From UHGV virus genome UHGV-0127428: DNA of 30,373 nt; one strand, 5' to 3'. Position 1 is the first letter of the stretch; the number at the start of each line of letters is the position of its first letter. Shown one piece after another: positions 4,503-30,337 of the stretch. The notes below the pieces were generated by a model. That model saw only the letters and a list, made by a program, of their open reading frames with translations, had not been told where the DNA came from and searched no databases. Both the position numbers and the translations under genes were made by a program. The DNA is from a virus.

Positions 4503-4852
4503 TGGAGCCATACAGCCTCACACTCGATGAGGCCTGTCATTTTCTCAAGATATCCAGACCGACTGCCATTAACTGGATACGCACAGGGCGTCTTCAGGCA
4601 ACACGCAAAGATCCCACTAAGAATAAATCTCCTTACCTCACAACACGACAAGCCTGCATTGCGGCTCTTCAGTCTCCGCTGCATACTGTCCAGGTGAGCG
4701 CGGGTGATGGCATAACAGAGGAAAGAAAATGTCACTCTTCCGCAGAGGTGAAATATGGTACGCCAGTTTCACATTGCCGAACGGTAAAAGATTTAAACAG
4801 TCTCTTGGAACAAAGGACAAAAGGCAGGCGACAGAACTCCATGACAAGCTAA
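4502..4852 (+). CDS. xis: P22-type excisionase (Xis)
   Basis: ATG at 4502 overlaps the yfdT stop (taATGg). The 116-aa product ([38 protein letters not shown]...) resembles P22-family Xis and overlaps the int start, as is typical. Confidence 0.7.
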
Positions 4853-5892
4853 AGGCTGAAGCATGGCGGGTCAGCAAACTTGGTGAAATACCTGATATAA
4901 CGTTCGAGGAAGCGTGTGTCAGGTGGCTTGAAGAGAAAGCACATAAAAAATCACTGGACGATGACAAAAGCCGGATCGGATTCTGGCTTCAACATTTCGC
5001 AGGGATGCAACTAAGAGACATCACTGAATCAAAAATTTATTCAGCGATGCAGAAAATGACAAACCGGCGTCATGAGGAAAACTGGAAACTCAGGGCAGAA
5101 GCATGCAGAAAAAAAGGGAAACCTGTTCCAGAATACACGCCAAAACCAGCGTCCGTTGCAACGAAGGCTACGCATCTTTCATTTATAAAGGCCCTGCTAA
5201 GAGCCGCAGAGCGTGAATGGAAAATGCTTGATAAGGCACCAATTATTAAAGTGCCTCAACCGAAGAATAAACGTATCCGCTGGCTGGAGCCTCATGAAGC
5301 ACAAAGGCTGATTGATGAATGTCCGGAGCCATTAAAGTCTGTTGTTGAATTTGCACTGGCAACAGGCTTAAGACGCTCGAACATCATCAACCTTGAATGG
5401 CAACAAATAGACATGCAGCGCCGGGTGGCATGGATAAACCCGGAAGAGAGTAAATCAAACCGCGCAATTGGCGTTGCGCTGAATGATACTGCATGTCGCG
5501 TATTGAAAAAACAAATCGGGAATCATCACCGTTGGGTATTTGTTTACAAGGAAAGCTGTACCAAACCAGACGGAACGAAAGCGCCAACGGTCAGGAAGAT
5601 GCGGTATGACGCAAACACAGCCTGGAAAGCGGCGCTGAGACGAGCAGGTATTGATGATTTCAGATTTCACGACTTGAGACACACCTGGGCAAGTTGGCTG
5701 GTTCAAGCCGGAGTCCCGTTGTCAGTGTTACAGGAAATGGGAGGCTGGGAGTCTATCGAAATGGTTCGTCGATATGCTCACCTCGCACCTAATCACCTTA
5801 CCGAACACGCACGGCAAATAGACTCGATCCTGAACCCATCGGTCCCAAATTTGTCCCAGTCAAAAAATAAGGAAGGTACTAATGATGTGTAA
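4729..5892 (+). CDS. int: P22-type tyrosine integrase
   Basis: 387 aa; the N-terminus [27 protein letters not shown] matches my recollection of P22 Int. Catalytic signature present ([29 protein letters not shown]). Stop lies immediately before an att core copy. Confidence 0.9.
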
Positions 5893-5925
5893 CTTATTGA
5901 TTTAAATGGTGCCGATAATAGGAGT
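5893..5925. repeat. att core copy 1 (short): cttattgattt-aaa-tggtgccgataataggagt
   Basis: Its 19 nt tggtgccgataataggagt equal the reverse complement of the 3' end of tRNA-Thr (ACTCCTATTATCGGCACCA). Similarity to the tRNA stops after ggagt, where element B sequence begins. Same flank motif as copies at 18458 and 30324. Confidence 0.7.
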
Positions 5926-6067
5926 AAAACACTCGATTAATCTCGTGTTAATGCCATCACCTACGACCATTACTAATTGATTGAATCTTATAGAAAAATC
6001 ATCATTTTCTATGCGTCACAATCAATTTTCACATTACAAACGCTCCGACACTTTAGCCGGAGATTTT

Positions 6068-7345
6068 ATGAGATACAAGCCTAACCAATACTTAATCTGT
6101 GATTCTTACGGTAACTACTATTTAAGGATCACGCTGCCTGTGTATATGCAGCCCTTTTTTGAAGGAAAAAGGACGTTTGTCAGAAGTCTACACACAAGTA
6201 ATCTTCGTGTTGCACGTAGAAAGCGTGATCAGATTGCAGATGAATACCATTGCTTACGGGAGAGTGTTGCCCCTGTAAACAGCACAATAGAAAACACGCT
6301 GGAACTGTTACGCAGTAAGGCTAAATACGCCAAAACAGCTACCAGAGTGCAAGATACAGCGTCTTCGTGTCCGTCATTGCTTAAAATTCTTGAAATCTAC
6401 CTGACAATTAACAGCACGAAGAAGAAGCCAGCCACTTTAGCTAAGGCAAGAAAAGCGGTAGAGATGTTTCTCTCCTACCGTAAAAAGCCTGATATTGCAT
6501 TGCAAGATGTAAGCCGCACCACTGTTACAGGCTGGATTGAACACATGCAAAAAACTCTTTCACAACAATCAATTGCAAATTATATCAGTCCAATGGCCCA
6601 GCTATGGGAATTAGCTTCATCACGTTACCACGATGCGCCAGAAAGGGCGCTCTCCCCCTGGCGAGGGCATAGGCTTGATGTGGCACAAAGTAGAGAGAGC
6701 TACGAGGCATTTTCTAACAAAGAGCTATTGCAGGTGTTGCAAGTATTTTCCGGTAATTCAGCAGAAAACAAAGAAATGACGGCTTTGTGTCTTATCGGTT
6801 TATATACAGGTATGCGGATCAATGAGATAGCAAGTCTCACAATAGACGATGTGAAAGAGATCGAAGGTGTGCTGTGTTTTGAAATCACACAGGGAAAAAC
6901 GAAAGCTGCGGCACGTCTTGTGCCTGTGCATAGCCTTATCACTCCATTGGTGTTATCTCTTCGTGAAAAGCCTCACAATGGCTTTTTGTTCTATCACGCC
7001 AGCATTACAGAACGTGCTGACGGTAAACGCTCTACGTGGCATACACAACGATTTACAAGAGCTAAACGAAAGGCTTTAGGGGAAAAGGGAACAGAAAGGA
7101 AAGTGTTTCATTCTCTGAGACACGGAGTAGCACAGCTTCTTGATCGAAATCAAATTCCAGAGGACCGCATAGCTTTAATGTTGGGCCATCAGCGCGGCAA
7201 TACAGAAACATTCCGCACATATAGCAAGAATGCAGCTTCTCCAGTAGAGCTTAAAAAATATATTGAGCTTTTACGCTACCCTGAAATAGAGAAAGGCTTA
7301 TCAATCAATAAAAAATCAAATTTAAGGCGTAAAACAACGCTATAG
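6068..7345 (+). CDS. tyrosine recombinase/integrase of element B, distinct from the P22-type integrases
   Basis: Catalytic signature present: GMRINEIASL (Arg), HSLRHGVAQL (HxxR), GHQRGNTETFRTYSK (Tyr). Start chosen at the ATG at 6068 with ggag 6 nt upstream; the tool's TTG start at 5981 is less likely. Lies immediately inside the left boundary of element B. Confidence 0.75.
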   Translation: MRYKPNQYLICDSYGNYYLRITLPVYMQPFFEGKRTFVRSLHTSNLRVARRKRDQIADEYHCLRESVAPVNSTIENTLELLRSKAKYAKTATRVQDTASSCPSLLKILEIYLTINSTKKKPATLAKARKAVEMFLSYRKKPDIALQDVSRTTVTGWIEHMQKTLSQQSIANYISPMAQLWELASSRYHDAPERALSPWRGHRLDVAQSRESYEAFSNKELLQVLQVFSGNSAENKEMTALCLIGLYTGMRINEIASLTIDDVKEIEGVLCFEITQGKTKAAARLVPVHSLITPLVLSLREKPHNGFLFYHASITERADGKRSTWHTQRFTRAKRKALGEKGTERKVFHSLRHGVAQLLDRNQIPEDRIALMLGHQRGNTETFRTYSKNAASPVELKKYIELLRYPEIEKGLSINKKSNLRRKTTL

Positions 7346-7352
7346 ACGTAAT

Positions 7353-7386
7353 AAAGAGGCTTCAATATAGACTGATGCCTCTTTTA
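7353..7386. terminator. bidirectional terminator hairpin between convergent genes
   Basis: Stem agaggc / gcctct (7355-7360 and 7377-7382) with a T-run after it; lies between the end of the integrase (+) and the end of the 219-aa gene (-). Confidence 0.45.
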
Positions 7387-7425
7387 TGATTATCTCGTTA
7401 CAGAGCGTTTCATAGGCGTTTAAGG

Positions 7426-8085
7426 CTATTGTTTAAATACTGGCGTTACAACGTCTTGCCCTGGGCTTTTTGTATTTACCTGCATTTTAATCTGTCCCCC
7501 TACAGATTTATTTGGTGCTGTTTTTACCGCAATTGCGCTTGTAGTTGCTTTAGAGACAAGACGGATTTGCTCAAAATCAAGAGTAAACAATAGGCTTTCG
7601 CTTGCTTCTTCTTCATAAGACATGCCAACTAACACAACGTTGTCATAATTTTTTAACTCAGTGACAAGTAGGAAAGGTTGGCGACTGTCCATCAACTGAT
7701 TTAGGTATTCAAGCATAAGCATACGTCGATTGCCGTTAATTCCCGCATTCTTAATCATATCGGGATTGAGCTTCAATACGGTTTCAGAGATACGCCCCTG
7801 TAATGTGAACTTGTTATTCCGTATTTGAACATGATCACTAACTTCTGATCCTGATTCGACGGCATAGCTTGTAACGTCTGCATTTCGGCTAACTTTCGTC
7901 GATTCCACGCTATCAAATGATAATGCCTGGTAGTCATTGTAAGCAGCATTTGCACCACTGCCGAGGTTAGAGGTAATGATCGCAAAGCCGTTACCCCCTT
8001 TAGTTGTTCTACCGTTGCTATCGTTGCTTGTGCTGTTGATTTTCGCCTCAGTCGGGCGACCAATGGTTAACGGACCCATTGCCAT
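7426..8085 (-). CDS. hypothetical protein (219 aa), last gene of the capsid-like operon
   Basis: Good RBS (aagga) upstream of the ATG at 8085; Gly/Asn/Ser-rich N-terminus; no recognisable motif. Confidence 0.5.
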   Translation of the reverse strand: MAMGPLTIGRPTEAKINSTSNDSNGRTTKGGNGFAIITSNLGSGANAAYNDYQALSFDSVESTKVSRNADVTSYAVESGSEVSDHVQIRNNKFTLQGRISETVLKLNPDMIKNAGINGNRRMLMLEYLNQLMDSRQPFLLVTELKNYDNVVLVGMSYEEEASESLLFTLDFEQIRLVSKATTSAIAVKTAPNKSVGGQIKMQVNTKSPGQDVVTPVFKQ

Positions 8086-8132
8086 AATTTGTAATCCTTA
8101 TTTAAGGGGGCTAAACTGCCCCACAGTGATGA

Positions 8133-9974
8133 TTAATAGGTTGACCCGCCTGACATAACACCCAGCGTTAATAGCTTGCTAAACTCAGCGGAGGATGCCT
8201 TTGATTTGAAGTCGATAAATTCGCTCAATCGTCCGGTGTCTGATTCGATAGTTAGCGGCACTTCTGCATTTACTTGTAATTCTGGATTGAAGTTAATAAC
8301 AGGTGCAAAGGTGTAAGAAGGAGCCTTGAAAGCTTGTTGTGCTGCACTCTGTTTCAGATTTGCAATGTTTTGTCCTTCGAGACTGTATTGATTTACAGCC
8401 TGCGCCCCACCTACCGTTTCTTCTGGCATAAACCAGCTTTTAATAGTGTTAACCAGGGAATTGCTGTTATCTGGCTTAGTTGTTCCGGTGCCAGCGCCTT
8501 TATATTGATCAGGAGTGAGATTAGAAAGATTCTGCTTCATTCCTTCGTTAGATAGTGGCGGTGCATCCCCTAAATTCTTTTGAATAGCTGCCGTCTTCTC
8601 GTCGTTTTTCATCAGCCAGTTGATTGCTTTCATTACAGCGTTAACCAATCCGCCGATAGCCTCGCCTAATTTGGTAAACATTGGCAGCATTGCAACCATG
8701 CTCTTTTTAAACTCTTCAATCACTTTCGGATCAAGAGATTTCATAAAGCCATCAACAAAGGCGATCCCTTGTGAGTCAGAAAGCCCACTAAGTGCATTAT
8801 TCAGTTCACGGAATTTAATAACGCTTTCCTGTTGTGCCTGCGTTACCCAGCGCCCTGATTCTCGTTGTTCTCGTGCTGATTGTTCCACTTCTTTAGCGGA
8901 GCGTGTCCAGTATTTAGAGGTGAGCATCAAATCATCAGCCAGATCTTCCAGACGACTACCGATTTGTGCATCTGAATAGCCTTTAGCTACCATTCCCTGA
9001 ACTGCTTTACTAACCAGACCAGCCGGATTATCAGCAAAGTCTTTTAGATCCTTTTTAGTTAAGAATCCTTCATTCATTAAAGTATTGATGCCGCTATCGC
9101 CGCCCTTCCATTCTCCTTTACCTGTTTTTTTATCGACTACATATTCAGCCTCATCATAGCTTTTGGTTGCACGCTCACGCACATCTTTCATCTGATCGAG
9201 ATACTTACGTTTACCTTGATCCCCCATCATTGAATCAACGCCGTTTTTGTAGGCCCATTGCTCAATATTGTTCATCTGGTTAACGTCTACACCGCCCAGC
9301 TTCGCACGGCTATACAATTCTCCCAGCGTTTCAGCACTGGCAAAGCTGTTAGTAACAAATTCAGAGGCTTTGCTCATAGCCATATATGCAGCGCCAGCGC
9401 CTAAGCCACCCAGCATAACAGCCGCAGCACCGCCGCCAATACTCCCGCTACCCTTAACAGGTGCATAGGCTTTAGCGTGAGCGTTACGATTGCCATTAAT
9501 CTTACGTTGTTGCTGTTGTAGGCGTTTCATTTGGCTATTCATACGTGCCAGACTAATAGCGCCTCTTTCATATTGGAGGGCAATTTCTCTAGCCTGTGCA
9601 ATAGCTTTATATTGTTCCGCTACAGAAAGACGGTGCATTGCACTAATGCTTGATCCAACGTCTAAAAGCTTTAATTCTGCCTTCTCTTTGCGTGCTGCCA
9701 GGGCTTTTTGTTCTCTTGCAACTACACGTTGAGCGGCTAATTGTGCTTTAGCATTAGCTTTATCAGCCTGTGCTTGCTTTTTAGCAATATCGTCTACGTC
9801 TTTTTTTGCTTTAGCGGTTGATTGTTTATGTGTCTTAACACGCAATTCTATATCTTTCACAGCCGCCATTTGTTTACGAAGTTTTTCTACTTCTGCTTTT
9901 GCTTTCTCTAATGATGGTCGGTTAACTTCGAAGGTGACAACGTTCGAGAGGCGTGCCACGTTTAGCTCTAACAT
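8133..9974 (-). CDS. tape-measure-like protein (613 aa; coiled-coil N-terminus plus Gly-rich hydrophobic segment)
   Basis: N-terminal Lys/Ala/Gln/Glu-rich predicted coiled coil (KLRKQMAAVKDIELRVK...AKAQLAAQRVVAREQ) followed by GSGSIGGGAAAVMLGGLGAGAAYMA. This architecture is typical of phage tape-measure or internal virion proteins; assignment is by composition only. Confidence 0.4.
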   Translation of the reverse strand: MLELNVARLSNVVTFEVNRPSLEKAKAEVEKLRKQMAAVKDIELRVKTHKQSTAKAKKDVDDIAKKQAQADKANAKAQLAAQRVVAREQKALAARKEKAELKLLDVGSSISAMHRLSVAEQYKAIAQAREIALQYERGAISLARMNSQMKRLQQQQRKINGNRNAHAKAYAPVKGSGSIGGGAAAVMLGGLGAGAAYMAMSKASEFVTNSFASAETLGELYSRAKLGGVDVNQMNNIEQWAYKNGVDSMMGDQGKRKYLDQMKDVRERATKSYDEAEYVVDKKTGKGEWKGGDSGINTLMNEGFLTKKDLKDFADNPAGLVSKAVQGMVAKGYSDAQIGSRLEDLADDLMLTSKYWTRSAKEVEQSAREQRESGRWVTQAQQESVIKFRELNNALSGLSDSQGIAFVDGFMKSLDPKVIEEFKKSMVAMLPMFTKLGEAIGGLVNAVMKAINWLMKNDEKTAAIQKNLGDAPPLSNEGMKQNLSNLTPDQYKGAGTGTTKPDNSNSLVNTIKSWFMPEETVGGAQAVNQYSLEGQNIANLKQSAAQQAFKAPSYTFAPVINFNPELQVNAEVPLTIESDTGRLSEFIDFKSKASSAEFSKLLTLGVMSGGSTY

Positions 9975-10008
9975 GTTAATTGTTTCCCTGTATTATGATT
10001 GTTGTTTG

Positions 10009-10206
10009 TTATTGTTTTTTAGAACAATAATATTGGATTGCTTCGAAAGTGCTGCACCCAGTCTGAAAGACACGCTGGCGCACATTATTTGCATCAATTT
10101 CTAAAAGGCGGCAAAGCGCCGATGTGTTTATAACTGATTCCTCGCTAATAGCTGCCAGTTCTTTTACAGATTTAAGAATTAATGCCTGTGAATTTTCTGT
10201 ATTCAT
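10009..10206 (-). CDS. small hypothetical protein (65 aa from the ATG at 10206)
   Basis: Internal ATG with gagag RBS; the longer 91-aa frame starts in a hydrophobic, unlikely leader. Confidence 0.3.
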   Translation of the reverse strand: MNTENSQALILKSVKELAAISEESVINTSALCRLLEIDANNVRQRVFQTGCSTFEAIQYYCSKKQ

Positions 10207-10360
10207 TGGTTTTCTCTCACATATATATATTTTTATTTGGGTTTGTAGACAGTAGAAAAACAAAAAGGGCAAGAGACAGCGCATATTTTGCTTATATGAT
10301 TATCCCTTACCCTTATTGCCCCGATTATTTCCAGACGTAGGGGAACGTCTTTAACACTTT

Positions 10361-11389
10361 TTACGCTACTGTGATCTGCACAGAGAAGCCAACACCGTGG
10401 TTAACCACAAGCGAGCTATTCTCGGTCACTACGTGCACTGCGTCGCCGCGATTCGATTCGAAAGCATAGCTGTAATACTCTTTAGCGCCTTGAGACAGCA
10501 GATCGAAGGAACTGGAAGGCGCGCCATAGATAGCTTGGTAAACACCTCCACCCTTAGCGAATTTAGGCACGGCTACAGCGTCAGCGGTCATATGTGCCAG
10601 CAGCAGCGGATCAGTCACTTTGATCAGATCAATGTTAGTTCCTGGAATGGTGAAAGTAGTTACGCCAGGCAGCAGAGAACGCACATTAAACACCACGTTT
10701 GCATCGTCTACAGGGCTTGCATATTGGAACGCATTGACCATGCCAACGCTGTAACGAATAGCGTTGAATGCCGCAGGTTTACAGAACACAACAACACGCT
10801 CAATGGTTGCAGCCTGGCTTTGTGCCTTAGCAATCATATCCGTATGCATCTGATCAAATTGCTTGAATACGGTCATTGTGTTGGTGCTGGATGCGTCAAC
10901 GGTTGCAGTCATTGGAGACACACCGAACAGAGTGCTGTAATCGATCAGAACATCGTCAGTTTTCGGGGTATGTGTCTTGCCAGAGAACAGAGAAGCCGCG
11001 AGGATGCTTTCTTTAGTGCGCTGGAATGCAACATTGTGTTTAGCGATATATTCCGCATACAGATCCGGCAGTGTTTCTTCAATAGAGCTTCCGGCTTTGC
11101 GTTTGCCTTGCACGTCCTGCGGTTTGATCAGGTCTTCACGCAGGAAGTAAGGGATTTCAATCAGCCATTCTTCCCCGTTCTCACGCTTAGTAACGTTATG
11201 CTCAGAGCTAAAACGGCTTGTAGGATGGTTGAACAGAGATTCATTGCTCTCGATAAGCTGGGAAACAGCCACTTTGTGACTTTCTACAGGCACAGGATCA
11301 GTAAAATCCAGAGTAGACAGTAGGTAATTGCGTGAGTCGTTTAATTCGAACAGTGGAGCAAGATCAACCACTTCATTTCCGATAATCAT
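10361..11389 (-). CDS. candidate major capsid protein (lambda gpE-like family)
   Basis: 342 aa, similar in size to lambda E (about 341 aa). The C-terminal ...GFSVQITVA resembles the recalled lambda E C-terminus ...FVSVQLA. It is directly preceded by a small decoration-sized gene, as D precedes E in lambda. Strong RBS. Family assignment is tentative. Confidence 0.45.
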   Translation of the reverse strand: MIIGNEVVDLAPLFELNDSRNYLLSTLDFTDPVPVESHKVAVSQLIESNESLFNHPTSRFSSEHNVTKRENGEEWLIEIPYFLREDLIKPQDVQGKRKAGSSIEETLPDLYAEYIAKHNVAFQRTKESILAASLFSGKTHTPKTDDVLIDYSTLFGVSPMTATVDASSTNTMTVFKQFDQMHTDMIAKAQSQAATIERVVVFCKPAAFNAIRYSVGMVNAFQYASPVDDANVVFNVRSLLPGVTTFTIPGTNIDLIKVTDPLLLAHMTADAVAVPKFAKGGGVYQAIYGAPSSSFDLLSQGAKEYYSYAFESNRGDAVHVVTENSSLVVNHGVGFSVQITVA

Positions 11390-11405
11390 TATTATTTATT
11401 CCTTC

Positions 11406-11780
11406 TTAAGATGTGAAAACAGAGTGGAAGCCTTCAAGCTGGAAGCCTTTAGCAGCGAGAGCTGCAATAGCAGCTTCTTTTACAGCGCCTTCGGCATTCA
11501 GGGCATCAGCTTTGATGCAAACGAGTCCGGCATTAGCACGAAGCACGTTAACTGTTTTATTTGAATCAGCAGTTACGAAGTCAGACACAACGACAAGAAC
11601 ATCAGCGCCGCTAACATATTTAGCGCCGGATGAATCAATGAGGTCGCCGCACGTTACATCTTGTGCAAGTGCTGCAAATTTTTTGCTTTCTACAGCCGCG
11701 TAAGGGTCGGTTGCATAGCTCACTACGTCAGTGATGCTTTTACGATGTGGGAAAACATCGCTTAATTTTAAAATAGCCAT
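11406..11780 (-). CDS. candidate head decoration-like protein (124 aa)
   Basis: Size and position immediately upstream of the capsid-like gene; Ala/Val/Gly-rich beta-type composition; aagga RBS. No direct motif evidence. Confidence 0.35.
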   Translation of the reverse strand: MAILKLSDVFPHRKSITDVVSYATDPYAAVESKKFAALAQDVTCGDLIDSSGAKYVSGADVLVVVSDFVTADSNKTVNVLRANAGLVCIKADALNAEGAVKEAAIAALAAKGFQLEGFHSVFTS

Positions 11781-11989
11781 TATTTTTCCTTAGATTGTTT
11801 GATTTGTTGAGCTTTAGCATTAATCAAATCTTGGTGAGATGGTTTATTGCTTTCAGCCTTATAAAGACGTTCACACTGTTTCTTTAATTCTGTGGGAGTG
11901 ATGCCAAGCGCGTAGGCTGTAGCATTCAACACATCTTCAGTTAGTGTTAACTTTTCATTGCCATATTTCAGGATAATTTCTTGTTTCAT
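11780..11989 (-). CDS. small hypothetical protein (69 aa), first gene of the capsid-like operon
   Basis: ORF whose stop overlaps the start of the next gene; lysine-rich and helical in composition. Confidence 0.35.
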   Translation of the reverse strand: MKQEIILKYGNEKLTLTEDVLNATAYALGITPTELKKQCERLYKAESNKPSHQDLINAKAQQIKQSKEK

Positions 11990-12983
11990 TTATATAACGA
12001 TTCCATTATGTTGGAATTTAATAAATCCCCCAGGCTATAAGAGGTTCAATCTGACAATAGCGAGGGGGATTTATTAACGTGTCGGGCAATACACAGCGAT
12101 AAGTAAAACCTTGAGGAGGTTTTAAACGTATCTCTAAGAATGCTTATTAAACATGCTTAAAGATAGGTTTAAAGGGTGAACAGATATTCCTGAAAACATG
12201 CTCTTAGGAAAACATGCGGAATCAATCAGGAATATCTATTCGGGGCGCGGTGGCTAACCGCTATCTTTCATGGTGTGGATGCACCAGTCAGATTTTAAGG
12301 AATCACTATTCCAATCTACTCACAGATTAAATTTTTAATAATGATTAACTACACCAACAGTAATCTACCGTTTCAGAAAATCGTTTTTACAACCAAAGCT
12401 TATAGATCCGCATTCTATAAAACCCGTTTTGCTATCAATATTTCCAAAGTTTATTGCACCATTCTTAGCTAAACTCTCTCTACTTGCGGCTAACGCTATG
12501 CAGATGATAGTTTTTTGACAACAACTTAATAGATTATTCTGTTACTAACTTCTGTCATTAAATAAGAGTTTAATGATGTTAGTAAATAGTTATAAAATAT
12601 AACTATCAGTGTAAGGCTCTTTAATGTTTTCGGACAAAATAAGGAGCTTTAGGATAAGCATAGATGAAAAATAAGAGCGGGAAGGGCAAGGAGATAACAC
12701 CTACCCGCTTTTATCAAAAATTAAGCACAATGCCTAACAACATTTATCAACACAACGTAGAAACAATCAACAATCAAAGAGGGAGTTATGATTATTCTAA
12801 AACTTCTTGAGGGGATGGAAGGTAATATTTGTTAGAGGTTAATGCCATTCAACCTTTGAGGCTATCACCTTCCATATGCAGGGATTTATGACAGGAAAAG
12901 GATTAACACCAGTCAAAACCTTTTTATCTACCCCTAATATTATTATATAATGAAATCGTTATAAATGCAAATGATTTTTATTA

Positions 12984-13292
12984 TCATTTAGAGAAAATAG
13001 CACTTTTTGCTAAATCATCTACTAATTGCTGAATCTCTTCACTTGCAGCCTTTAACGTGCTGGCGGTGTCTGTGATGGTTTGAGTGCACATCTTGGCATT
13101 GTCCTCAATTAGCTCTAAATCTCTCACCAGAGAGATAAAATCGTCAAGGCTTACATTCACCTTCATTAAGCTAATAACGCATTGAGAGAGCGTGTAATCG
13201 CATAAATCTGAATAGGCTTGATTTATTCTTGTTTGTAGTGAGATAGTCAGATCTAAAAGTTGTTCCATTGCATTGCTAATATCTTCTTCCAT
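12984..13292 (-). CDS. hypothetical acidic protein (102 aa)
   Basis: aaggag RBS; start overlaps the stop of the upstream gene (taATG); no recognisable family. Confidence 0.45.
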   Translation of the reverse strand: MEEDISNAMEQLLDLTISLQTRINQAYSDLCDYTLSQCVISLMKVNVSLDDFISLVRDLELIEDNAKMCTQTITDTASTLKAASEEIQQLVDDLAKSAIFSK

Positions 13293-13495
13293 TATGCGGC
13301 TTCTCCTTGTAATGCATCATTAATCATATTCAATACGATGTTAAAAGGTGTCTTGAGCGTCAGCACTTCATCACGGTAACGCTCTAATGCTTCGTAGTCT
13401 TCTGTTTCTTTTGCCAGTCGGATTAACTCAGCATAGTTTTTTGCATCAGACAGGATCATCTGAAATAATTGTGTTTCTTGAATATAGCCAATCAT
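13292..13495 (-). CDS. hypothetical protein (67 aa from the internal ATG)
   Basis: The internal start MIGYIQETQ... has a strong aaagga RBS; the longer 81-aa frame begins in the intergenic region. Confidence 0.4.
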   Translation of the reverse strand: MIGYIQETQLFQMILSDAKNYAELIRLAKETEDYEALERYRDEVLTLKTPFNIVLNMINDALQGEAA

Positions 13496-13552
13496 TATTT
13501 TTCCTTTTTTGAATATTTTCATTGGGCGCTTATACATACGCCCATCATTTTA

Positions 13553-13933
13553 TTAGTTAGAACGTTTGTTAGAAGCTAATGTATCTTCTAAATGAGCCAT
13601 CAGATCGACTTCCGATGCACCACCTACACAATTATTGAAAGCGTTAAATCCCAAAAAATGATGATAGGAGCTAAACCCTAAAAGCTGCCAACGTTTCAGA
13701 GTGCCATCAGAAATGATAGTTTGTTTTCTTGTTCTTGGGCGAAAGTAAACGCCTGGCATTGACTGGATTATTTCTAATTCTTCATCGCTTAATTCAGGGG
13801 ATTCTGTTTCAAGAATAAAGATTATCTCTTCCCCTGGATCGTTATTGGTGTGTGTCGGTGGACGTTGTCTTTTTGAATTGAAATTACTGTTTTTTTCAAT
13901 ACGTTTTAAGTTATTACGTTTCTTTTTTCCCAT
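13553..13933 (-). CDS. hypothetical protein (126 aa) with a basic N-terminus
   Basis: Strong RBS (aagaggga); N-terminal MGKKKRNNLKRIEK...; no recognisable family. Confidence 0.45.
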   Translation of the reverse strand: MGKKKRNNLKRIEKNSNFNSKRQRPPTHTNNDPGEEIIFILETESPELSDEELEIIQSMPGVYFRPRTRKQTIISDGTLKRWQLLGFSSYHHFLGFNAFNNCVGGASEVDLMAHLEDTLASNKRSN

Positions 13934-14116
13934 TTTCCCTCTTTTTATGTGGATTATAAAAACTTAATGTCATTGTTACGATGAATATCGCCATAAATGC
14001 ATTTGCCATATGTATTGCCCGATCTGTTGTTATTGATTGTTTGTGATAAACAATTCAAAATCTTTGTTTAATTTCAAAAGACGAAATGTAGTGCTGTTAT
14101 AAGCCATTTATTCTCC

Positions 14117-14686
14117 TTAGAATGGTATTGAATCGTATATTTCACTTTTTTCTCTTAGAGATATTATCAGATCGTGAAAAGCCTGTTTCTCAAGATAGAT
14201 ATTCTTTGAATCTAATGCTCGTTTTACAAAATCTTCTGTTTCTTCGTGCGGTGGTTTCTTCTTATCAAGGGAAAGAAGCCAAGTAAAAATTTCGGGCCGC
14301 TCAGGGAACTCTGATTCCTGTATTTCTTCTTCAACGATGATTTCGGAAACATTCAATATTCCATTAGATTCGTCTTCTTTCTCAGAAGGATCAGGTAGTG
14401 ATGATTCTCCTTTTGGAATATCAAGCACTCGATAAAGGTTAGAGCTTCCTGGTCGTGCATCTTTTATAATTAATCCCATTTCGAGCAATTTCTTAACCCT
14501 TTCTTCTGCTGCTCTTGGTGTTATGCCAAAAACATCGCCTATCTTAGCGTAAGAGGGAAATGCACGATCAAACCCTCTCAAATAGCAGTAAAGGTTTTTA
14601 GCACTATCTGTAAATTTATGCCCGTTTACTTGGCTTATTTTTAGAATCCACATAGGAACTTTTACAAATTGTTCTTCATTAATCAT
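14117..14686 (-). CDS. replication initiator-like protein (winged-HTH Rep family)
   Basis: Start set at the ATG at 14686 with aaggag 8 nt upstream. N-terminal region (LYCYLRGF...AFPSYAKIGDVFGITPRAAEERVKKLLEMGLI) is typical of plasmid/phage wHTH replication initiators; acidic C-terminus. An iteron array lies 1.3 kb upstream. Confidence 0.5.
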   Translation of the reverse strand: MINEEQFVKVPMWILKISQVNGHKFTDSAKNLYCYLRGFDRAFPSYAKIGDVFGITPRAAEERVKKLLEMGLIIKDARPGSSNLYRVLDIPKGESSLPDPSEKEDESNGILNVSEIIVEEEIQESEFPERPEIFTWLLSLDKKKPPHEETEDFVKRALDSKNIYLEKQAFHDLIISLREKSEIYDSIPF

Positions 14687-14739
14687 TAAAAATCTCCTTG
14701 ATGTAATCACGCTCTACGGCGCTACTATGGTGATAAAAA

Positions 14740-14910
14740 TCACTTGCTTTTGTTTGAGAGTGTTTCAGCCTCTCTTTTCAACATATCAAGAATGTAATCT
14801 GTAACAGTGATACGTTTACTTCTGGCTTCTTTAAACAACACCTGAAATACTTCATCAGGAATATGAAAGCAAGTGCGTGGTTGTCTTTTCTTTTCTGTAG
14901 TTTCGCTCAT
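14740..14910 (-). CDS. small ribbon-helix-helix (CopG/Arc-like) regulator candidate (56 aa)
   Basis: MSETTEKKRQPRTCFHIPDEVFQVLFKEARSKRITVTDYILDMLKREAE fits an RHH pattern (beta strand then two helices); strong RBS; immediately upstream of rep. Confidence 0.4.
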   Translation of the reverse strand: MSETTEKKRQPRTCFHIPDEVFQVLFKEARSKRITVTDYILDMLKREAETLSNKSK

Positions 14911-14931
14911 AGTTTTCTCCTTCTCCTGTTA

Positions 14932-15108
14932 TTATTCTTTCTCTGCCTTACGCAGTTCATCAATAATTTTTAGTGCATCGTCAAAGCATTTTTCACGCTC
15001 TGGATAACCACAGCGTCGCGCTGTGTTCCTGTTCATCCTTACTTTAAAACGATTAATCTCACCACGTTTCCAGGCTTCAACTACATCCTGTGGAGTAAAA
15101 TATTTCAT
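14932..15108 (-). CDS. small hypothetical protein (58 aa)
   Basis: ATG with a perfect aggagg SD; first gene of the rep operon. Confidence 0.35.
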   Translation of the reverse strand: MKYFTPQDVVEAWKRGEINRFKVRMNRNTARRCGYPEREKCFDDALKIIDELRKAEKE

Positions 15109-15960
15109 TAATTAGCCTCCTTATTCTATTTGGTTAAAAGAAAAAACACCTTGCAAGCCTTGTTGGGCTTCAAAGTGCGGTGCATTGGTTTAATTACTTA
15201 GAGGATAAGAATGTTTTCTGTCCCTAATATTACTTTACCACGACTAAAAGCTTTTGTCAACCCCTAGCCATAAAAATATTGATCATTTTCAGTGTGTTAT
15301 AATTTTTCTTAGCAATTCGTGCTCTTACGAGTGCTCCTATTCTTCCTTATTCTCTAAAACGCTCTAAAACGCCCTCTGACGAGGTTTTGATAAATACAAT
15401 ACATTCCCTTATGTAGAGGCTGTTTAGCTCGCCTACGGCTTGATTTAAGCGGTAGAATCTTATTTAACCTTCAACTACTAAAACCATTCTTTCTTTTTTG
15501 TTTGTTGTTGGTTGTTGTCTGTGTCTATGTGCTAACATCGCTAACGCGTAGCACACAAGGTTATTGCACTCGTCAGAGTATTGCACAATAGATTTTCTCT
15601 TAAATAGATTGATGATCGTTAGATGGTAGTTAGTTAATTATCGTTATGCGCACAGCGCAAGACTATTTAGCCTTACGCAAGCCGTAGGCTATTTGCACAT
15701 AGTAGATTACATATTCGTTGTGAGCGGCATTAGCGAACATAGATCTACTAACTAACATCAACAAACAAAAACTATGTGTTATGACAAGCAGTCTAACGAT
15801 TAACACTCTAACTTGTGCAAGGTTCTGGCGAATGCCAATAGATTAAGGGATAGTCAAGGACTCCCCTAACGGGTATCTCTATAATTATTCTTTAAAGATA
15901 AAAGAATTTATAAAAGATAATTTAATTGTAGTTTGATAGTTGATCTAATAGGTAACAAAA

Positions 15961-16096
15961 TTCTGTAGGGGTGGCTAACAGTTTTCTGTGGGGGTGTATA
16001 ACATAATTCTGTTAGGGTTGGGGTAACAGTTTTCTGTTAGGGTGCATATTTCTTTAAAAGTTAAGGATAACAGAATTCTGTGGGGGTAGTTCACAG
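15961..16096. repeat. iteron-like direct repeats (five copies of TTCTGTnGGGG...), candidate replication origin
   Basis: Copies start at 15961, 15984, 16007, 16032 and 16076, mostly 23-25 bp apart, consensus ttctgt(a/g/t)ggg(g/t)t; set in AT-rich noncoding DNA upstream of the rep operon. Confidence 0.6.
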
Positions 16097-16480
16097 TGAC
16101 CTACCGTTACATCCATTTATCACATAACATCTGTGCAATGATCTTCTAAAAGTGTTTCTTGCTACCAAAATTAAACATCTAAAACAGGCTTAAATTCAAT
16201 GTAATTGATGATTAATCCCTGTGTAATTCCTACGTAAAAATCCAATGAAAAGTAGCTTAAAAAGTGCAATGTTAGCTTTCTTCACTTTTACATCACTTTC
16301 GCAAAGCCGCATTACACACGGCTTACAGAGCACTATCAGAAATTGTTGATTAAAAATCAATCTATTATTTGTCGAACAAGTTTCCTTTAATGCAACAAAA
16401 AATTATTTTTTCAAAATAAACACACTATTTAATAGCTTGCTAATTTTACCAAAATGTAACTACATGATTCTCATGCAAGA

Positions 16481-16586
16481 CGTGTAGTGATAAAGCAGGC
16501 TAAATCACCACACTAAAAACCTTCGAATTTCGTAGTGAAAAAAGTCCTTTACACACCTAATCAACACGATCAATAATCACTACACG
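16481..16586. promoter_or_regulatory. candidate res-like recombinase binding region (11-bp inverted repeat)
   Basis: cgtgtagtgat (16481-16491) and its reverse complement atcactacacg (16576-16586), plus repeated atcaacac / atcaccaca motifs, immediately upstream of the serine recombinase gene. Confidence 0.25.
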
Positions 16587-16612
16587 CAAATCAACACAGA
16601 AGGAAAATGAAA

Positions 16613-17164
16613 ATGGCTAATATTGGATACATTAGGGTATCGACTGTCCAACAAAACACAGACCGTCAATTAGCTGGAGTAACTCTTGATAAAGTCTTTG
16701 AAGATAAAGCGTCAGGCAAGAATACCCAGCGCCCACAGTTTGAGGCAATGATGAACTATGTGCGTGAAGGTGATGTTTTGCATGTTCACAGCATTGATCG
16801 ACTTTGCCGTAATACAGCCGACCTACTGGCAACGGTTGAGCAATTAACAGAGCGCGGCGTGTCTGTGCATTTCCATAAAGAAGACTTTAAGACAGGGAAG
16901 AACTCTCCCGCAGGGAATATGATGCTCACAGTGCTTGCAGCAGTGGCACAAATGGAACGTGAAATGATGCTTGAGCGGCAACGTGAGGGGATCGCCGCAG
17001 CTAAGGCCGCTGGACGTATAGCAAAACGTGGTAATGGAAAAGCAATTGATCGAGCGGGAATTGTTGCCGCTCTCGCGAATGGTGGATCAATTCGGAGCGT
17101 AGCAAAAGATTTCAGTGTCAGCACACAGACGGTGCAACGTATCAAGAAAGAGCAGGAAGCGTAA
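16613..17164 (+). CDS. serine recombinase (resolvase/invertase family)
   Basis: N-terminal MANIGYIRVSTVQQ with the catalytic Ser, plus a C-terminal HTH-like tail (SIRSVAKDFSVSTQTVQRI). The start could instead be the ATG at 16607. Confidence 0.8.
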   Translation: MANIGYIRVSTVQQNTDRQLAGVTLDKVFEDKASGKNTQRPQFEAMMNYVREGDVLHVHSIDRLCRNTADLLATVEQLTERGVSVHFHKEDFKTGKNSPAGNMMLTVLAAVAQMEREMMLERQREGIAAAKAAGRIAKRGNGKAIDRAGIVAALANGGSIRSVAKDFSVSTQTVQRIKKEQEA

Positions 17165-17489
17165 TGCCTCCTGATATTTGAGAATTGTCGCTGCGTGGAC
17201 CTGACGCCGCTGATCTTCGCGTTAAACATTGATCACGTTTGCGCCGATTTCAGATAAAAAGGCAGCTATTAAGCAATACGTAACTTTTACAATTAGTGAA
17301 ATTATCTAAAACACAAGTTATATAGATGAGAAAATGAAATATTATCTTGAACAAATCAAACAAAACAACACATCATCTTGTTGACACCATGCAACGTGAA
17401 TAGTAAGCTATTATATGTGAAAATTTGCACATTGCATGCAATAAAAAATAAATGATACCTTATTGTTGTTAAATCAATAGGGGGTATCT

Positions 17490-17648
17490 ATGCGCTTTAT
17501 CTTATCCATTTTAAAAACCTGCAGAACCACAATTACTTTAGCTGTAATTGTTACCATCATATACCTCATCTATTTTACCCCTCGAGATAAAATCGATTCA
17601 CTAGCGATCATCGTTCATGCAATGGCTACATTAACTAAAAAACTTTAA
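17490..17648 (+). CDS. small hydrophobic peptide (52 aa)
   Basis: Strong SD (agggggt) before the ATG; MRFILSILKTCRTTITLAVIVTIIYLIYF... is a predicted single transmembrane helix; followed by a hairpin near 17663-17700. Confidence 0.35.
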   Translation: MRFILSILKTCRTTITLAVIVTIIYLIYFTPRDKIDSLAIIVHAMATLTKKL

Positions 17649-17714
17649 TAATTTCACTATCAGGCGCATAAACACATCTTTGATCGCTGGATGTGTTATG
17701 CGCCTACTGGTGAT

Positions 17715-17867
17715 TCAATCCTTAAGCCATTTCAACTCACTAAGGAGTTTTCTTTCTTCGTTCTCTCTCTGTTTACGCTCTAGCCAGGCTTTTCCTTCTG
17801 GCGTAGACAGGAACTTACGAGCGTGAATCTTGCGGTTATTACGTTTTATAGCTGCAATGTTTTTCAT
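17715..17867 (-). CDS. small basic protein (50 aa)
   Basis: ATG with gaggc SD; MKNIAAIKRNNRKIHARKFL...; convergent with the hydrophobic peptide gene. Confidence 0.3.
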   Translation of the reverse strand: MKNIAAIKRNNRKIHARKFLSTPEGKAWLERKQRENEERKLLSELKWLKD

Positions 17868-18457
17868 CGTGTTGCCTCTGTATTCATATGAAAATTAACA
17901 AGTTACATACTACACAGGGAGACTACGCATAAAACACAATACAAGTAAAGATACATTTTCAAGACAATAGGAGCCATAAAGCGCCTTTGATGGTTATACC
18001 AAAAAATAAGCGCCGTAGGCGTATCCACTAAAAAGGGCTTTTTCACAAAAGCTATGAAGTCTTAGCAGTTCTTCTCTTATCAGGCACCCGTTGTACTCCG
18101 GTGGACGAAACCGTGCTAGAGCTTGATTCTTTCCCGATCAAGTTAGGTTTTGAAGAGGTGGGCTTTGATCCACTATTGCACTTAAAACTCTTCCCATCAT
18201 TTAGCCTGTTTATCCTCTGCAACGTCTCACGACGTGTAGCATCATTGGACACCGCGCCAGGTGTGGAACATCTTGCTAAGAGTTTTGGTAGAAGGTTTAG
18301 AGACGGTGGCACGTCTTCCAGCTTCAAAGGAACTTGTTACGAGGTTGAGCCTGGGAACTACTCGCCCATACGTGTTACACTACCAAAGCCCATAACAACG
18401 TATAGGCGTTTGTAAGTGATAACAGAAGATACAATTTCTTAGAGAAGTTAAGCTAAG

Positions 18458-18519
18458 TTATTGATTTTCTTAATGGTGCCGATAATAGGAGTCGAACCTA
18501 CGACCTTCGCATTACGAAT
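18458..18519 (-). repeat. att core copy 2 carrying a 46-nt 3' fragment of tRNA-Thr (18474-18519)
   Basis: The reverse complement of 18474-18519 equals the tRNA-Thr(CGU) sequence from the anticodon loop to the CCA end (ATTCGTAATGCGAAGGTCGTAGGTTCGACTCCTATTATCGGCACCA). Similarity to the tRNA stops at 18520, so this is a displaced partial copy, not a gene. Flank ttattgatttt matches the other two copies. Confidence 0.8.
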
Positions 18520-28938: not shown

Positions 28939-29286
28939 GTGGAAGAAGAAATCTTCACTCGTGAAGAGGCAGCATCGTATCTGAAGGTAGACAAAGGCAC
29001 TATCACGCAGTGGATACGAAGTGGACGACTTCAGGCCGCAAAGATAAATCCAGATAAACCTAAAAGTCCATATCGCATTTGCAAGTCAGACTGCATTGCG
29101 GCGCTTAAGTCTGTGAGACACAATAGCGCGGTGAATGCGGTTGATGTGCAGGAGGTTAAAGCATGTCAATCAAACTACGCGGTGGCACGTGGCACTGTGA
29201 TTTCGTCGCGCCAGATGGATCAAGAGTTAGACGCTCTCTTGAAACATCGGACAAAAGGCAAGCGCAAGAACTTCACGATCGTCTGA
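28939..29286 (+). CDS. xis: excisionase (Xis), divergent paralogue of the element A Xis
   Basis: GTG start; TITQWIRSGRLQAAKINPDKPKSPY...CIAALKS parallels [25 protein letters not shown]...CIAALQS; overlaps the int start. Confidence 0.6.
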   Translation: MEEEIFTREEAASYLKVDKGTITQWIRSGRLQAAKINPDKPKSPYRICKSDCIAALKSVRHNSAVNAVDVQEVKACQSNYAVARGTVISSRQMDQELDALLKHRTKGKRKNFTIV

Positions 29287-30323: not shown

Positions 30324-30337
30324 CTTATTGATTTTAA

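What the first reader, a model, noticed from the sequence alone, without database searches (positions are those of the whole stretch)
15110..16110. Iteron array and structured AT-rich noncoding region, likely origin of element B
Five direct repeats of about 22 bp (ttctgtNggggt..., 15961-16096) lie in about 1.5 kb of noncoding DNA upstream of the RHH-Rep operon, with a possible one-mismatch DnaA-box-like tttatcaca near 16117. This implies autonomous, plasmid-like replication after excision. The same region has a tandem ctctaaaacgc duplication (about 15349-15371).
Basis: seen in the sequence. Interest (0 to 1): 0.5.

Follow-up and report, generated by a model that had tools for sequence, protein, structure and literature searches.

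The report
Iteron origin of a coliphage satellite
Five 23-bp repeats beside the most AT-rich stretch of the window are very probably the replication origin of a 12.6-kb E. coli island. Related islands swap the repeat type and the DNA-binding domain of a winged-helix protein together, and four lytic coliphages carry nucleases armed with near-identical copies of those domains.

Summary
Five same-strand ~23-bp repeats lie at 15953-16097, where chance predicts 0.6 matches in the whole window. They abut the most AT-rich 70 bp of the window, inside 1,498 bp with no convincing ORF.

The origin reading is well supported, though only indirectly. The neighbouring 189-aa protein has a variable winged-helix N-domain, an acidic disordered linker and a C-terminal tip like that of SSB (…IPF). 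In 73 distinct related loci, five N-domain types pair with five repeat types; the dominant type matches in 67 of 73. The pairing holds whatever the C-domain or flanking module.

Four virulent Stephanstirmvirinae coliphages encode chimeras of these N-domains (91-100% identical) fused to a GIY-YIG/T5orf172-like endonuclease. This is the logic of ICP1 Odn against the PLE RepA/ori.

The "DnaA box" does not stand up. "Autonomous plasmid-like replication" has no support: no plasmid forms were found, and no helicase, primase or loader gene was recognised. Helper-phage-dependent satellite replication is more likely.

The "structured" 15420-15878 module is real as inverted repeats. Its nature, RNA or DNA, is unresolved.

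The parts
14117..14686 (-). Rep-like protein of 189 aa. It has an N-terminal winged helix (residues ~10-90, type N1), a disordered acidic linker (93-127), a three-helix C-domain (130-180) and the C-terminal tip ...YDSIPF.
   Evidence: Family hits: phrog_270 'replication initiation protein' at 1.5e-8, O-like phrogs and HTH_36 below cut-off. The AF2 model has pLDDT 64.6. RefSeq gives the 189-aa start.
14740..14910 (-). A 56-aa ORF, the second gene of the operon. It is 98-100% conserved in many relatives and 43-44% in others.
   Evidence: tblastn. No significant family or PDB hit, so the RHH fold is unverified.
14932..15108 (-). A 58-aa ORF, the first gene of the operon. It was used as the anchor for all related loci.
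15232..15260 (-). Sigma-70-like promoter for the 58aa-56aa-Rep operon: TTGACA, 17-nt spacer, TAAAGT, with a TG extension.
   Evidence: 10 of 12 consensus positions. This is a consensus match only.
15352..15371 (+). Tandem CTCTAAAACG x2, inside a block (14679/14912-15452) that is 75-83% conserved in the diverged relatives compared.
   Evidence: The function was not tested; it may be an operator.
15420..15878 (.). Module rich in inverted repeats, mosaic between relatives. It ends in a hairpin followed by a T-rich run.
   Evidence: Inverted repeats I1, I3, I4, I6, I19. z = -3.3 and -3.5. The alignments show swapped sub-modules. Covariation is inconclusive. No Rfam hit.
15860..15952 (.). AT-rich stretch and candidate DNA-unwinding element. 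It is up to 85.7% AT, the highest in the window.
   Evidence: An equivalent AT-rich stretch precedes the repeat array in nearly all the relatives printed.
15953..16097 (+). Five type-I1 iterons, TAACAGwwTTCTGTnGGGGT. Each is a ~12-bp near-palindrome (ACAGAATTCTGT) followed by a G-run.
   Evidence: They are cognate to Rep N-domain type N1 in 23 of 24 distinct N1 loci.
16087..16124 (+). Conserved tail TAGTTCACAGTGACCTAC CGTTACATCCA TTTATCACA. It holds single copies of the type-I4 and type-I5 repeats and the DnaA-box-like motif.
   Evidence: The DnaA-box reading is not supported.
16213..16409 (.). Conserved block (73-93% identity in relatives) with an inverted pair of CCCTGTGTAAT at 16217 and 16311, and an IHF-consensus match at 16355-16367.
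   Evidence: Function unknown.
16482..16513 (.). A 32-bp near-palindrome, GTGTAGTGATAAAGCA|GGCTAAATCACCACAC, ~95 bp upstream of the recombinase start. It is a candidate recombinase-binding or resolution site.
   Evidence: There is no second copy in the element.
16607..17164 (+). Small serine recombinase of 185 aa (resolvase/invertase type).
   Evidence: Pfam Resolvase at 1.1e-38 and phrog_125 'DNA invertase' at 2.3e-62. It is absent or replaced in some relatives that keep the origin region.

Best explanation
The AT-rich stretch plus the five-iteron array (about 15860-16100) is the replication origin of element B. Element B is a 12.6-kb island integrated at thrW (window ~5905-18519) and is most likely a satellite of large virulent Stephanstirmvirinae coliphages.

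Proposed mechanism, inferred except where noted:
1. The 189-aa protein encoded 1.3 kb away binds each iteron through its N-terminal winged helix, probably as a dimer on the ~12-bp palindrome.
2. The array of bound proteins opens the adjacent AT-rich DNA.
3. The acidic linker and the SSB-like C-terminal tip (…D/S-I/L-P-F) recruit replisome proteins of the host or helper that normally dock on the SSB tail, such as PriA, primase or the chi subunit.

Specificity sits in an exchangeable cassette made of the N-domain and its iterons. At least five such cassettes circulate in E. coli.

Shown here: the repeats exist; the AT-rich DNA adjoins them; the N-domain and iteron types co-vary; phages carry copies of the N-domains fused to an endonuclease.

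Inferred: the protein binds the repeats, the DNA melts, replisome proteins are recruited, and replication depends on a helper.
For: 1. The repeats are far beyond chance and are phased at ~2 helical turns.

2. The AT-richest DNA in the window abuts them. Nearly all the relatives examined share one architecture: structured module, AT-rich stretch, iterons, conserved tail.

3. The protein is modular, with 5 N-domain types and 5 C-domain types in mosaic combinations. The iteron type follows the N-domain. Across 73 distinct loci the dominant motif is cognate in 67, and a cognate array of at least 2 copies is present in 68. It does not follow the C-domain: C4 occurs with I1, I3 and I4. It does not follow the flank either: L013 carries N1 and I1 iterons next to the other, GC-rich module.

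4. The protein's only family hits with an assigned function are phage replication initiators. Its distant homologues keep the winged helix, the acidic linker and the …[ILV]PF tip. The SSB tail is DFDDDIPF; its IPF is essential and docks ExoI, DnaG and PriA (PMC10143822).

5. Phages Mt1B1_P17, BI-EHEC, muut and inny encode chimeras of N1 (99% and 93% identity), N3 (100%) or N5 (91%), plus N2 (86-93% identity), plus an endonuclease domain. That domain hits phrog_681 at ~2e-18 and MUG113 at the Pfam cut-off, and has T5-type GIY-YIG relatives. This mirrors ICP1 Odn, which copies the PLE RepA_N domain and cuts the PLE ori at its iterons (PMC8263062).

6. The island's capsid protein has phage relatives only among the head proteins of Stephanstirmvirinae and other large lytic phages such as Pseudomonas Pakpunavirus-type phages.
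Against: - There is no experimental binding or replication data.
- Neither the strict DnaA box nor a conserved one is present.
- No helicase, primase or loader was recognised in the island.
- The protein matches no curated initiator family above threshold. HTH_36 scores 19.8 bits against a cut-off of 25, and RepA_N, Rep_3 and Phage_rep_O give no Pfam hit.
- Foldseek gives only generic winged-helix matches, all with E >= 0.09.
- The iterons lie 0.85 kb from the operon start, not next to or inside the gene.
- The co-variation counts are not phylogenetically independent. Three loci carry only a non-cognate array (L034; L086; L080, where only one cognate copy is left) and three show no array, one of them (L040) rearranged.
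- The phage nuclease shows that the N-domain's DNA target matters, not that the target is an origin.
Confidence: 0.7

Rival explanations
1. The repeats are an operator or enhancer-like array for a transcription factor, which is how RefSeq labels the protein ('transcriptional regulator', 'LexA family'). In this reading they control island gene expression, not replication.
For: The RefSeq product names are. The best Foldseek and PDB matches are repressor winged helices: the LexA N-domain, MarR, ArsR and ST1889. The N-domain/repeat co-variation and the phage chimeras would fit any specific DNA-binding pair.
Against: The array lies ~700 bp from the operon's promoter-like site and ~450 bp from the one before the recombinase gene. 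It is preceded by the AT-richest DNA of the window. There is no LexA-type S24 domain. All PHROG hits with an assigned function are replication initiators. The conserved SSB-like tip has no obvious role in a repressor.
Confidence: 0.12
2. The repeats are a packaging recognition site (pac). A small-terminase-like winged-helix protein binds them and directs helper terminase to the island DNA.
For: Some satellites do encode their own small terminase subunits (knowledge from the field, not tested here), and pac sites can be repeat arrays. The island makes its own capsid protein. A phage nuclease aimed at a pac site would also be effective.
Against: The protein has no terminase-small-subunit hit in Pfam, PHROGs or NCBIfam, and its hits are to initiators. 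The tip resembles the SSB tail, which is a replisome docking motif. The AT-rich flank is typical of origins.
Confidence: 0.07
3. The repeats are a centromere-like partition site bound by an adaptor of the TubR/ParB type.
For: A weak profile hit to TubR (6tey, E = 0.019). Partition centromeres are often arrays of direct repeats.
Against: No ParA, TubZ or ParM-like motor gene was recognised among the island genes scanned (some small ORFs were not scanned). No plasmid form of the element is known. The hit is not significant.
Confidence: 0.04
4. This addition does not exclude the origin reading. The inverted-repeat module 15420-15878 would be transcribed rightwards as a ~450-nt structured RNA that runs into the origin. 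It could act as a primer, as a transcriptional activator of the origin, or as a copy-number regulator.
For: Folding z-scores of -3.3 and -3.5. Local hairpins are kept with both-side changes between module variants, for example GTGCTA/TAGCAC against GCGTTA/TAACGC (9 such pairs). In the long-range helix, several one-sided changes are G-U compatible on the + strand only. In relatives, a hairpin plus T-run ends the module just before the AT-rich stretch.
Against: The covariation term is unfavourable (+2.24 kcal/mol), only 5 sequences were compared, and as many changes break pairs as keep them. The two strands fold equally well. No Rfam family matches. The promoter scan found no + strand promoter in that region. 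The arms could equally be protein sites in duplex DNA, or single-stranded DNA hairpins.
Confidence: 0.25

Closest known systems
PLE RepA / ori replicon of Vibrio cholerae satellites, and the ICP1 origin-directed nuclease Odn (PMC8263062)
   Same: An initiator whose N-terminal DNA-binding domain co-varies with semi-palindromic iterons in a noncoding region, while the C-terminal part is shared and reshuffled. The element is an integrated satellite of a virulent phage. The phage carries a chimeric protein made of a copy of the initiator's DNA-binding domain fused to a T5orf172/GIY-YIG-type nuclease.
   Different: - The protein is not a RepA_N member by Pfam. RepA_N structures appear only as non-significant Foldseek matches.
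- There are five or more specificity types rather than two.
- The phage chimeras carry two DNA-binding domains in tandem and are 91-100% identical to the island domains, against 42% for Odn.
- The protein ends in an SSB-like tip.
- The host is E. coli and the phages are Stephanstirmvirinae.
- Nothing has been tested experimentally.
Iteron-type theta origins of plasmids (pSC101, P1, F, R6K, RK2)
   Same: Phased ~22-bp direct repeats next to an AT-rich stretch, with the cognate binding-protein gene nearby.
   Different: - There is no usable DnaA box.
- The protein is a single winged helix of 189 aa and does not match Rep_3 or any other curated plasmid-initiator family in Pfam.
- No Rep-type-specific iteron copy is seen in the operon's promoter region: the 9-mer GTTTTCTGT at 15213 is also present in a relative of another N-type.
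- No plasmid form is known.
Lambda O / ori-lambda
   Same: An N-terminal winged helix of the O-like kind (PHROG O-like families, E from 2.7e-5 to 2.3e-4). Specificity is modular between relatives. AT-rich DNA lies beside the iterons.
   Different: The iterons lie outside the gene. No P-like loader gene follows it. Pfam Phage_rep_O is not matched.
SSB C-terminal tail (DFDDDIPF) as a docking peptide (PMC10143822)
   Same: An acidic disordered segment ending in D/S-I/L-P-F. Variants end in EDFDIPF or EEDDFDIPF.
   Different: Here the tail sits on a sequence-specific duplex-DNA binder, not on an OB-fold protein that binds single-stranded DNA. Its binding partners are unknown.

Membership tests
Iteron-type theta replication origin | Three or more direct repeats of ~17-23 bp in helical phase | tested here: met
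   Five copies with spacing 23, 23, 25 and 44 nt. Chance gives 0.61 matches per 30 kb.
Iteron-type theta replication origin | AT-rich unwinding region adjacent to the iterons | tested here: met
   15860-15972 reaches 85.7% AT, the highest in the window. The feature is present in nearly all the relatives printed. This tests composition only; melting was not tested.
Iteron-type theta replication origin | DnaA box(es) | tested here: not met
   There is no site within 1 mismatch of TTATCCACA in 15109-16606. TTTATCACA varies or is deleted in relatives.
Iteron-type theta replication origin | Cognate initiator that binds the iterons | tested here: inconclusive
   The evidence is indirect only. N-domain type and iteron type match in 67 of 73 loci. 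Binding itself cannot be tested here.
Iteron-type theta replication origin | Initiator belongs to a recognised initiator family (Rep_3, RepA_N, Phage_rep_O and others) | tested here: not met
   Pfam gives only HTH_36 (19.8 bits, cut-off 25) and HTH_24 below cut-off. NCBIfam gives nothing. PHROG initiator families match at 1.5e-8 to 6.5e-3.
Iteron-type theta replication origin | Supports autonomous replication | not testable with these tools
   PLSDB has no small plasmid with this protein. The circularity of contigs the length of one element could not be checked.
PLE-type modular satellite replicon | The DNA-binding domain co-varies with the ori while the C-terminal domain assorts independently | tested here: met
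PLE-type modular satellite replicon | Semi-palindromic iterons | tested here: met
   Read directly from the sequences:
- I1: ACAGAATTCTGT plus a G-run.
- I2: GGAAATCATTTCC.
- I3: TATCAnnnTTGATA.
- I4: TCACAGTGA.
- I5: TGTAACGAATCGTTACA.
PLE-type modular satellite replicon | The helper phage encodes a chimeric nuclease carrying the initiator's DNA-binding domain | tested here: met
   Four phages carry such a gene. Their N-domains are 91-100% identical to island types, and the C-domain matches phrog_681 'endonuclease' at ~2e-18. Cleavage was not tested.
PLE-type modular satellite replicon | RepA_N-family initiator | tested here: not met
   No Pfam RepA_N hit. Foldseek hits to 4pql, 4pt7 and 5kbj have E > 0.09.
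PLE-type modular satellite replicon | Replication is triggered by and dependent on the helper phage | not testable with these tools
   This is inferred from the lack of recognisable helicase or primase genes in the island.
Invertible DNA switch (Hin/Gin type) | A segment flanked by inverted repeats and found in both orientations | tested here: not met
   A serine invertase-like gene is present. All related loci compared are collinear across 15109-16606. In 283 genome records every listed match across 11700-13300 is a single collinear piece.
Known structured RNA family | Match to an Rfam covariance model | tested here: not met
   There are no hits at gathering score, and only chance-level hits at E <= 5.

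The most novel reading that the evidence does not exclude
Element B belongs to an undescribed, widespread family of E. coli satellites of large virulent Stephanstirmvirinae phages. The noncoding region occurs in 747 of 5,426 complete genomes. Three features would make the family notable:
- Its replicon is an exchangeable cassette of N-domain plus iterons, with at least five specificities.
- Its initiator carries a mimic of the SSB C-terminal tail to capture replisome proteins.
- The phages fight back with Odn-like nucleases that carry two stolen initiator domains at once.

This would be the second known case of origin-directed nucleases, and one in a tractable host.
Probability: 0.5. Interest if true: 0.8.

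Novelty: new variant of a known kind. Interest (0 to 1): 0.6.

Why it matters
If correct, this fixes the origin and the specificity determinant of a common but unannotated E. coli island. It explains a 1.5-kb 'empty' region present in about one complete E. coli genome in seven.

It also extends the PLE/ICP1 arms race, in which a phage nuclease uses the satellite initiator's own DNA-binding domain to cut the satellite origin, from Vibrio to E. coli and to coliphages of the phAPEC8 and phi92 subfamily (Stephanstirmvirinae).

The SSB-tail-like tip gives a directly testable idea for how a minimal initiator with no helicase gene recruits a replisome.

Tried and rejected
- Rfam at gathering score and at E <= 5, and a tRNA scan: nothing.
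- Strict DnaA-box scan: none in the region. The IHF consensus matches only at 16355 and at the att sites.
- Invertible-segment idea for the serine recombinase: no inversions among the related loci, nor in the listed matches from 283 genome records for the other noncoding gap. There is no second copy of the recombinase-proximal palindrome.
- Fold of the protein: only generic winged-helix matches, so it cannot separate initiator from repressor.
- Search for plasmid forms in PLSDB and for relatives in one genome per species (2 loci). The family looks confined to Escherichia, and no autonomous form was found.
- Covariation test of the structured module: inconclusive.
- Attempt to see circular forms in metagenome contigs the length of one element: only partial contigs are held, so this was not testable.
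- Literature searches for an E. coli counterpart: none found in the searchable library. This does not prove it is unpublished.
- RHH assignment of the 56-aa ORF: no support.

Full report
**The observation**

The stretch 15109-16606 (1,498 bp) lies between a minus-strand operon and a plus-strand serine recombinase gene. The operon holds a 58-aa ORF (14932-15108), a 56-aa ORF (14740-14910) and a 189-aa protein (14117-14686). The recombinase gene is at 16607-17164. The stretch holds only three ATG ORFs of 31-38 aa. It carries no annotation in the RefSeq hits listed.

The repeat array is real. There are five direct copies, starting at 15953, 15976, 15999, 16024 and 16068, and TRF reports periods of 23 and 48. 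The core TTCTGTNGGGKT matches five times on one strand within 136 bp. Shuffles give 0.61 matches for the whole 30-kb window.

The tandem CTCTAAAACG x2 at 15352-15371 is also real. The AT-richest 70 bp of the entire window (85.7% AT) is 15860-15972, touching the first repeat.

**Where the window comes from**

The window is E. coli chromosome. Element B (about 5905-18519) is 99.8% identical to an island next to tRNA-Thr (thrW) in strain Z0117EC0054. The window holds three integrative elements in tandem:
- the end of a prophage, with its integrase at 4729-5892;
- element B;
- a P22-like remnant, with its integrase at 29163-30323.

The same att-like sequence occurs at 5890, 18454 and 30321.

Element B encodes:
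- a tyrosine integrase;
- a 219-aa protein resembling a tail fibre or baseplate protein;
- a 613-aa protein whose PHROG family is labelled tape measure;
- a gpE-type major capsid protein;
- several small ORFs;
- the operon and the recombinase described above.

No helicase, primase or loader was recognised.

**The noncoding region is a family trait**

Sequence similar to 15109-16606 occurs in 747 of 5,426 complete E. coli genomes, at 60-99% identity. Comparison with diverged relatives (L002-L006) shows a mosaic:
- 14679/14912-15452 is conserved in all of them.
- 15420-15937 is one of at least two alternative modules.
- The repeat zone is variable.
- 16062/16213-16409 is conserved again.

**The protein is modular**

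Alignment of homologues shows a variable N-terminal winged helix of ~100 aa, an acidic linker, and C-terminal domains that recombine freely with the N-domains. Clustering gave five N-types and five C-types in the first 23 loci.

The AlphaFold model (pLDDT 64.6) agrees with this layout. The winged helix spans residues 10-90, a disordered segment spans 93-127, a three-helix domain spans 130-180 and the tip is disordered.

PHROG hits are to replication initiators: phrog_270 at 1.5e-8, several 'O-like' families, and two families of unknown function. Pfam gives only sub-threshold HTH_36 and HTH_24, and NCBIfam gives nothing. PDB sequence and fold searches return generic winged helices such as LexA-N, MarR and ArsR. 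They also return staphylococcal RepA_N initiators, without significance. Homology alone therefore does not settle whether this is an initiator or a regulator.

The family is small, with only 50 clusters at E <= 1e-3 among 1.84 billion representatives.

**Iterons follow the N-domain**

Each N-type has its own repeat at the same place, after an AT-rich stretch and before a conserved tail:

| N-type | Repeat |
|---|---|
| N1 | TAACAGwwTTCTGTnGGGGT |
| N2 | GGAAnTCATTTCCTAGGT |
| N3 | TATCAnnnTTGATAGGGGTA |
| N4 | TAGCTCACAGTGACCTACCCCC |
| N5 | (A)TCGTTACnnCC with inverted TGTAAC |

All five are a 9-17-bp palindrome plus a short asymmetric tail.

Adding 80 metagenome loci gave 73 distinct loci. 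The dominant motif is the cognate one in 67 of them, and a cognate array of at least two copies is present in 68.

The pairing holds across other differences between loci. C-type 4 occurs with I1, I3 and I4. L013 has N1 and I1 iterons beside the other, GC-rich left module.

There are caveats. The loci are related to one another, so the counts are not independent. L034 (N4 with an I3 array) and L086 (a 93% N1 variant with an I4 array) carry only non-cognate arrays, and in L080 (N4) only one I4 copy is left beside four I2 copies. Some loci keep extra, 'fossil' arrays of other types. A sixth repeat type appears in L051 and L096.

**An SSB-like tip**

Almost all complete variants end in …YDSIPF, …YDSLPF or …EDFDIPF. 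About 20 of 45 distant homologues have entirely different middles yet also end in an acidic run followed by [ILVE]PF.

The E. coli SSB tail is DFDDDIPF. Its IPF is essential and is the docking peptide for ExoI, DnaG, PriA and other partners (PMC10143822). From this I infer that the iteron-bound protein presents SSB-like tails to recruit replisome proteins. This step is an inference, not a result.

**Phage counter-weapon**

The first similarity search found 355 bp of a virulent phage, Mt1B1_P17, that is 99.2% identical to the 5' end of the gene. The phage gene (328 aa) reads N1 domain, then an N2-type domain, then an endonuclease domain. That last domain hits phrog_681 at 1.6e-18 and Pfam MUG113 at the cut-off.

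Three more Stephanstirmvirinae phages have the syntenic gene with a different first domain:

| Phage | First domain | Identity |
|---|---|---|
| BI-EHEC | N1 | 93% |
| muut | N3 | 100% over 110 aa |
| inny | N5 | 91% |

All four phage proteins carry N2 as the second domain, at 86-93% identity. The nuclease domain's other relatives, at 35-46% identity, are putative homing or GIY-YIG endonucleases of phages such as T5-like phages.

This is the design of ICP1 Odn, which has an N-terminus copied from the PLE RepA_N domain and a T5orf172 nuclease domain, and which cuts the PLE origin only if the iterons are present. In PLE, too, the RepA_N domain co-varies with the ori while the C-terminus is shared (PMC8263062).

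The island's capsid protein has phage relatives only among the head proteins of Stephanstirmvirinae and other large lytic phages such as Pseudomonas Pakpunavirus-type phages, at 25% identity. Together these results point to element B being a satellite of these phages. They also show that the N-domain's DNA target is vital to the island.

**What does not hold**

- The 'DnaA box'. No site within one mismatch of TTATCCACA exists in the region. The TTTATCACA motif varies or is lost in relatives.
- 'Autonomous plasmid-like' replication. In PLSDB the protein occurs only inside a 166-kb plasmid and inside a chromosome filed as a plasmid, plus weak partial matches in two 120-kb Klebsiella plasmids.
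- An invertible switch. The recombinase gene is missing from some relatives that keep the origin region, and no inversion was seen. A 32-bp near-palindrome at 16482-16513 may be the recombinase's own site.

**The 'structured' module**

The stretch 15420-15850 folds better than shuffles on both strands, with z = -3.3 and -3.5. Its sub-modules are swapped between relatives. Some hairpins keep pairing through changes on both sides. However, the covariation term is unfavourable, only five sequences could be compared, and the strand is undecided. No Rfam family matches. It may be a transcript running into the origin, single-stranded DNA hairpins, or protein sites. I leave it open.

**Verdict**

The iteron array and its AT-rich flank are most likely the origin of a phage satellite. 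It would be read by a modular winged-helix initiator, and replication would probably depend on a helper phage rather than being plasmid-like. My confidence is about 0.7. The main rival is a purely regulatory binding array.

I found no paper describing this E. coli system in the searchable library.

Noticed in passing
L025:1828-2814 (Mt1B1_P17 QNJ49226), L026:1501-2499 (muut_154), L027:1510-2613 (inny_184), L028 (BI-EHEC, unannotated): Four virulent Stephanstirmvirinae coliphages carry a syntenic chimeric gene. It has two initiator-type winged helices (N1, N3 or N5, then N2; 86-100% identical to island domains) fused to a T5orf172/GIY-YIG-like endonuclease. It looks like an Odn-type anti-satellite nuclease with dual specificity.
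   Followed up: yes
window 14117-14140 (C-terminal codons of the 189-aa protein); homologues P0130-P0164: The protein and its distant homologues end in an acidic run plus [ILV]PF (YDSIPF, EDFDIPF). This resembles the SSB C-terminal docking peptide DFDDDIPF.
   Followed up: partly
window 16087-16124; L006:4210-4720; L015-L019: The conserved tail after the array holds single copies of the other repeat types (I4, I5). Some relatives carry whole extra arrays of non-cognate types. This suggests that iteron types arose by amplifying neighbouring pieces of one sequence, and by recombination between islands.
   Followed up: partly
L051, L052, L096 (metagenome loci): A sixth repeat type, GTCATCGTGACCGACCCCCC, occurs in these loci. 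L051 has two units of AT-rich stretch plus iterons in tandem (I2 x2, then the new type x2).
   Followed up: no
L034, L086: Two loci break the rule. One has an N4 protein with an I3 array, and the other a 93% N1 variant with an I4 array. They may be recent recombinants or dead replicons.
   Followed up: no
window 11990-12983: This is a second long noncoding gap (~1 kb) in element B. It is flanked by a 17-nt inverted repeat (11993-12009 and 12947-12963, 94% complementary), and it holds a 21-nt hairpin at 12018-12077. Every listed match from the 283 E. coli genome records is a single collinear piece, so no inversion was seen.
   Followed up: partly
window 16482-16513: A 32-bp near-palindrome lies ~95 bp upstream of the serine recombinase start, with related half-sites at 16531 and 16577-16586. 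It is a possible resolution or autoregulatory site.
   Followed up: partly
window 10361-11389: The island's gpE-type capsid protein has phage relatives only among major head proteins of Stephanstirmvirinae and other large lytic phages such as Pseudomonas Pakpunavirus-type phages (25% identity over the full length). These are the same phages that carry the chimeric nuclease.
   Followed up: partly
window 5890-5902, 18454-18466, 30321-30333: The same att-like sequence (AATCAATAAGTTA or AATCAATAACTTA) marks the junctions of three integrative elements stacked at thrW. Each element has its own tyrosine integrase.
   Followed up: partly
L049, L051, L052, L076, L086, L097 (metagenome contigs of 12.5-13.5 kb): Several metagenome contigs have exactly the length of one island, for example 12,600 bp at 83.7x in a food metagenome. 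L049 starts 30 bp outside the attR boundary. They could be excised or packaged forms, or assembly breaks at att repeats.
   Followed up: partly
window 16217-16227, 16311-16321, 17909-17919; L005, L006: The motif CCCTGTGTAAT recurs in both orientations in the conserved block right of the iterons, where chance predicts 0.32 per window. It occurs four times in relatives that lack the recombinase. What binds it is unknown.
   Followed up: no
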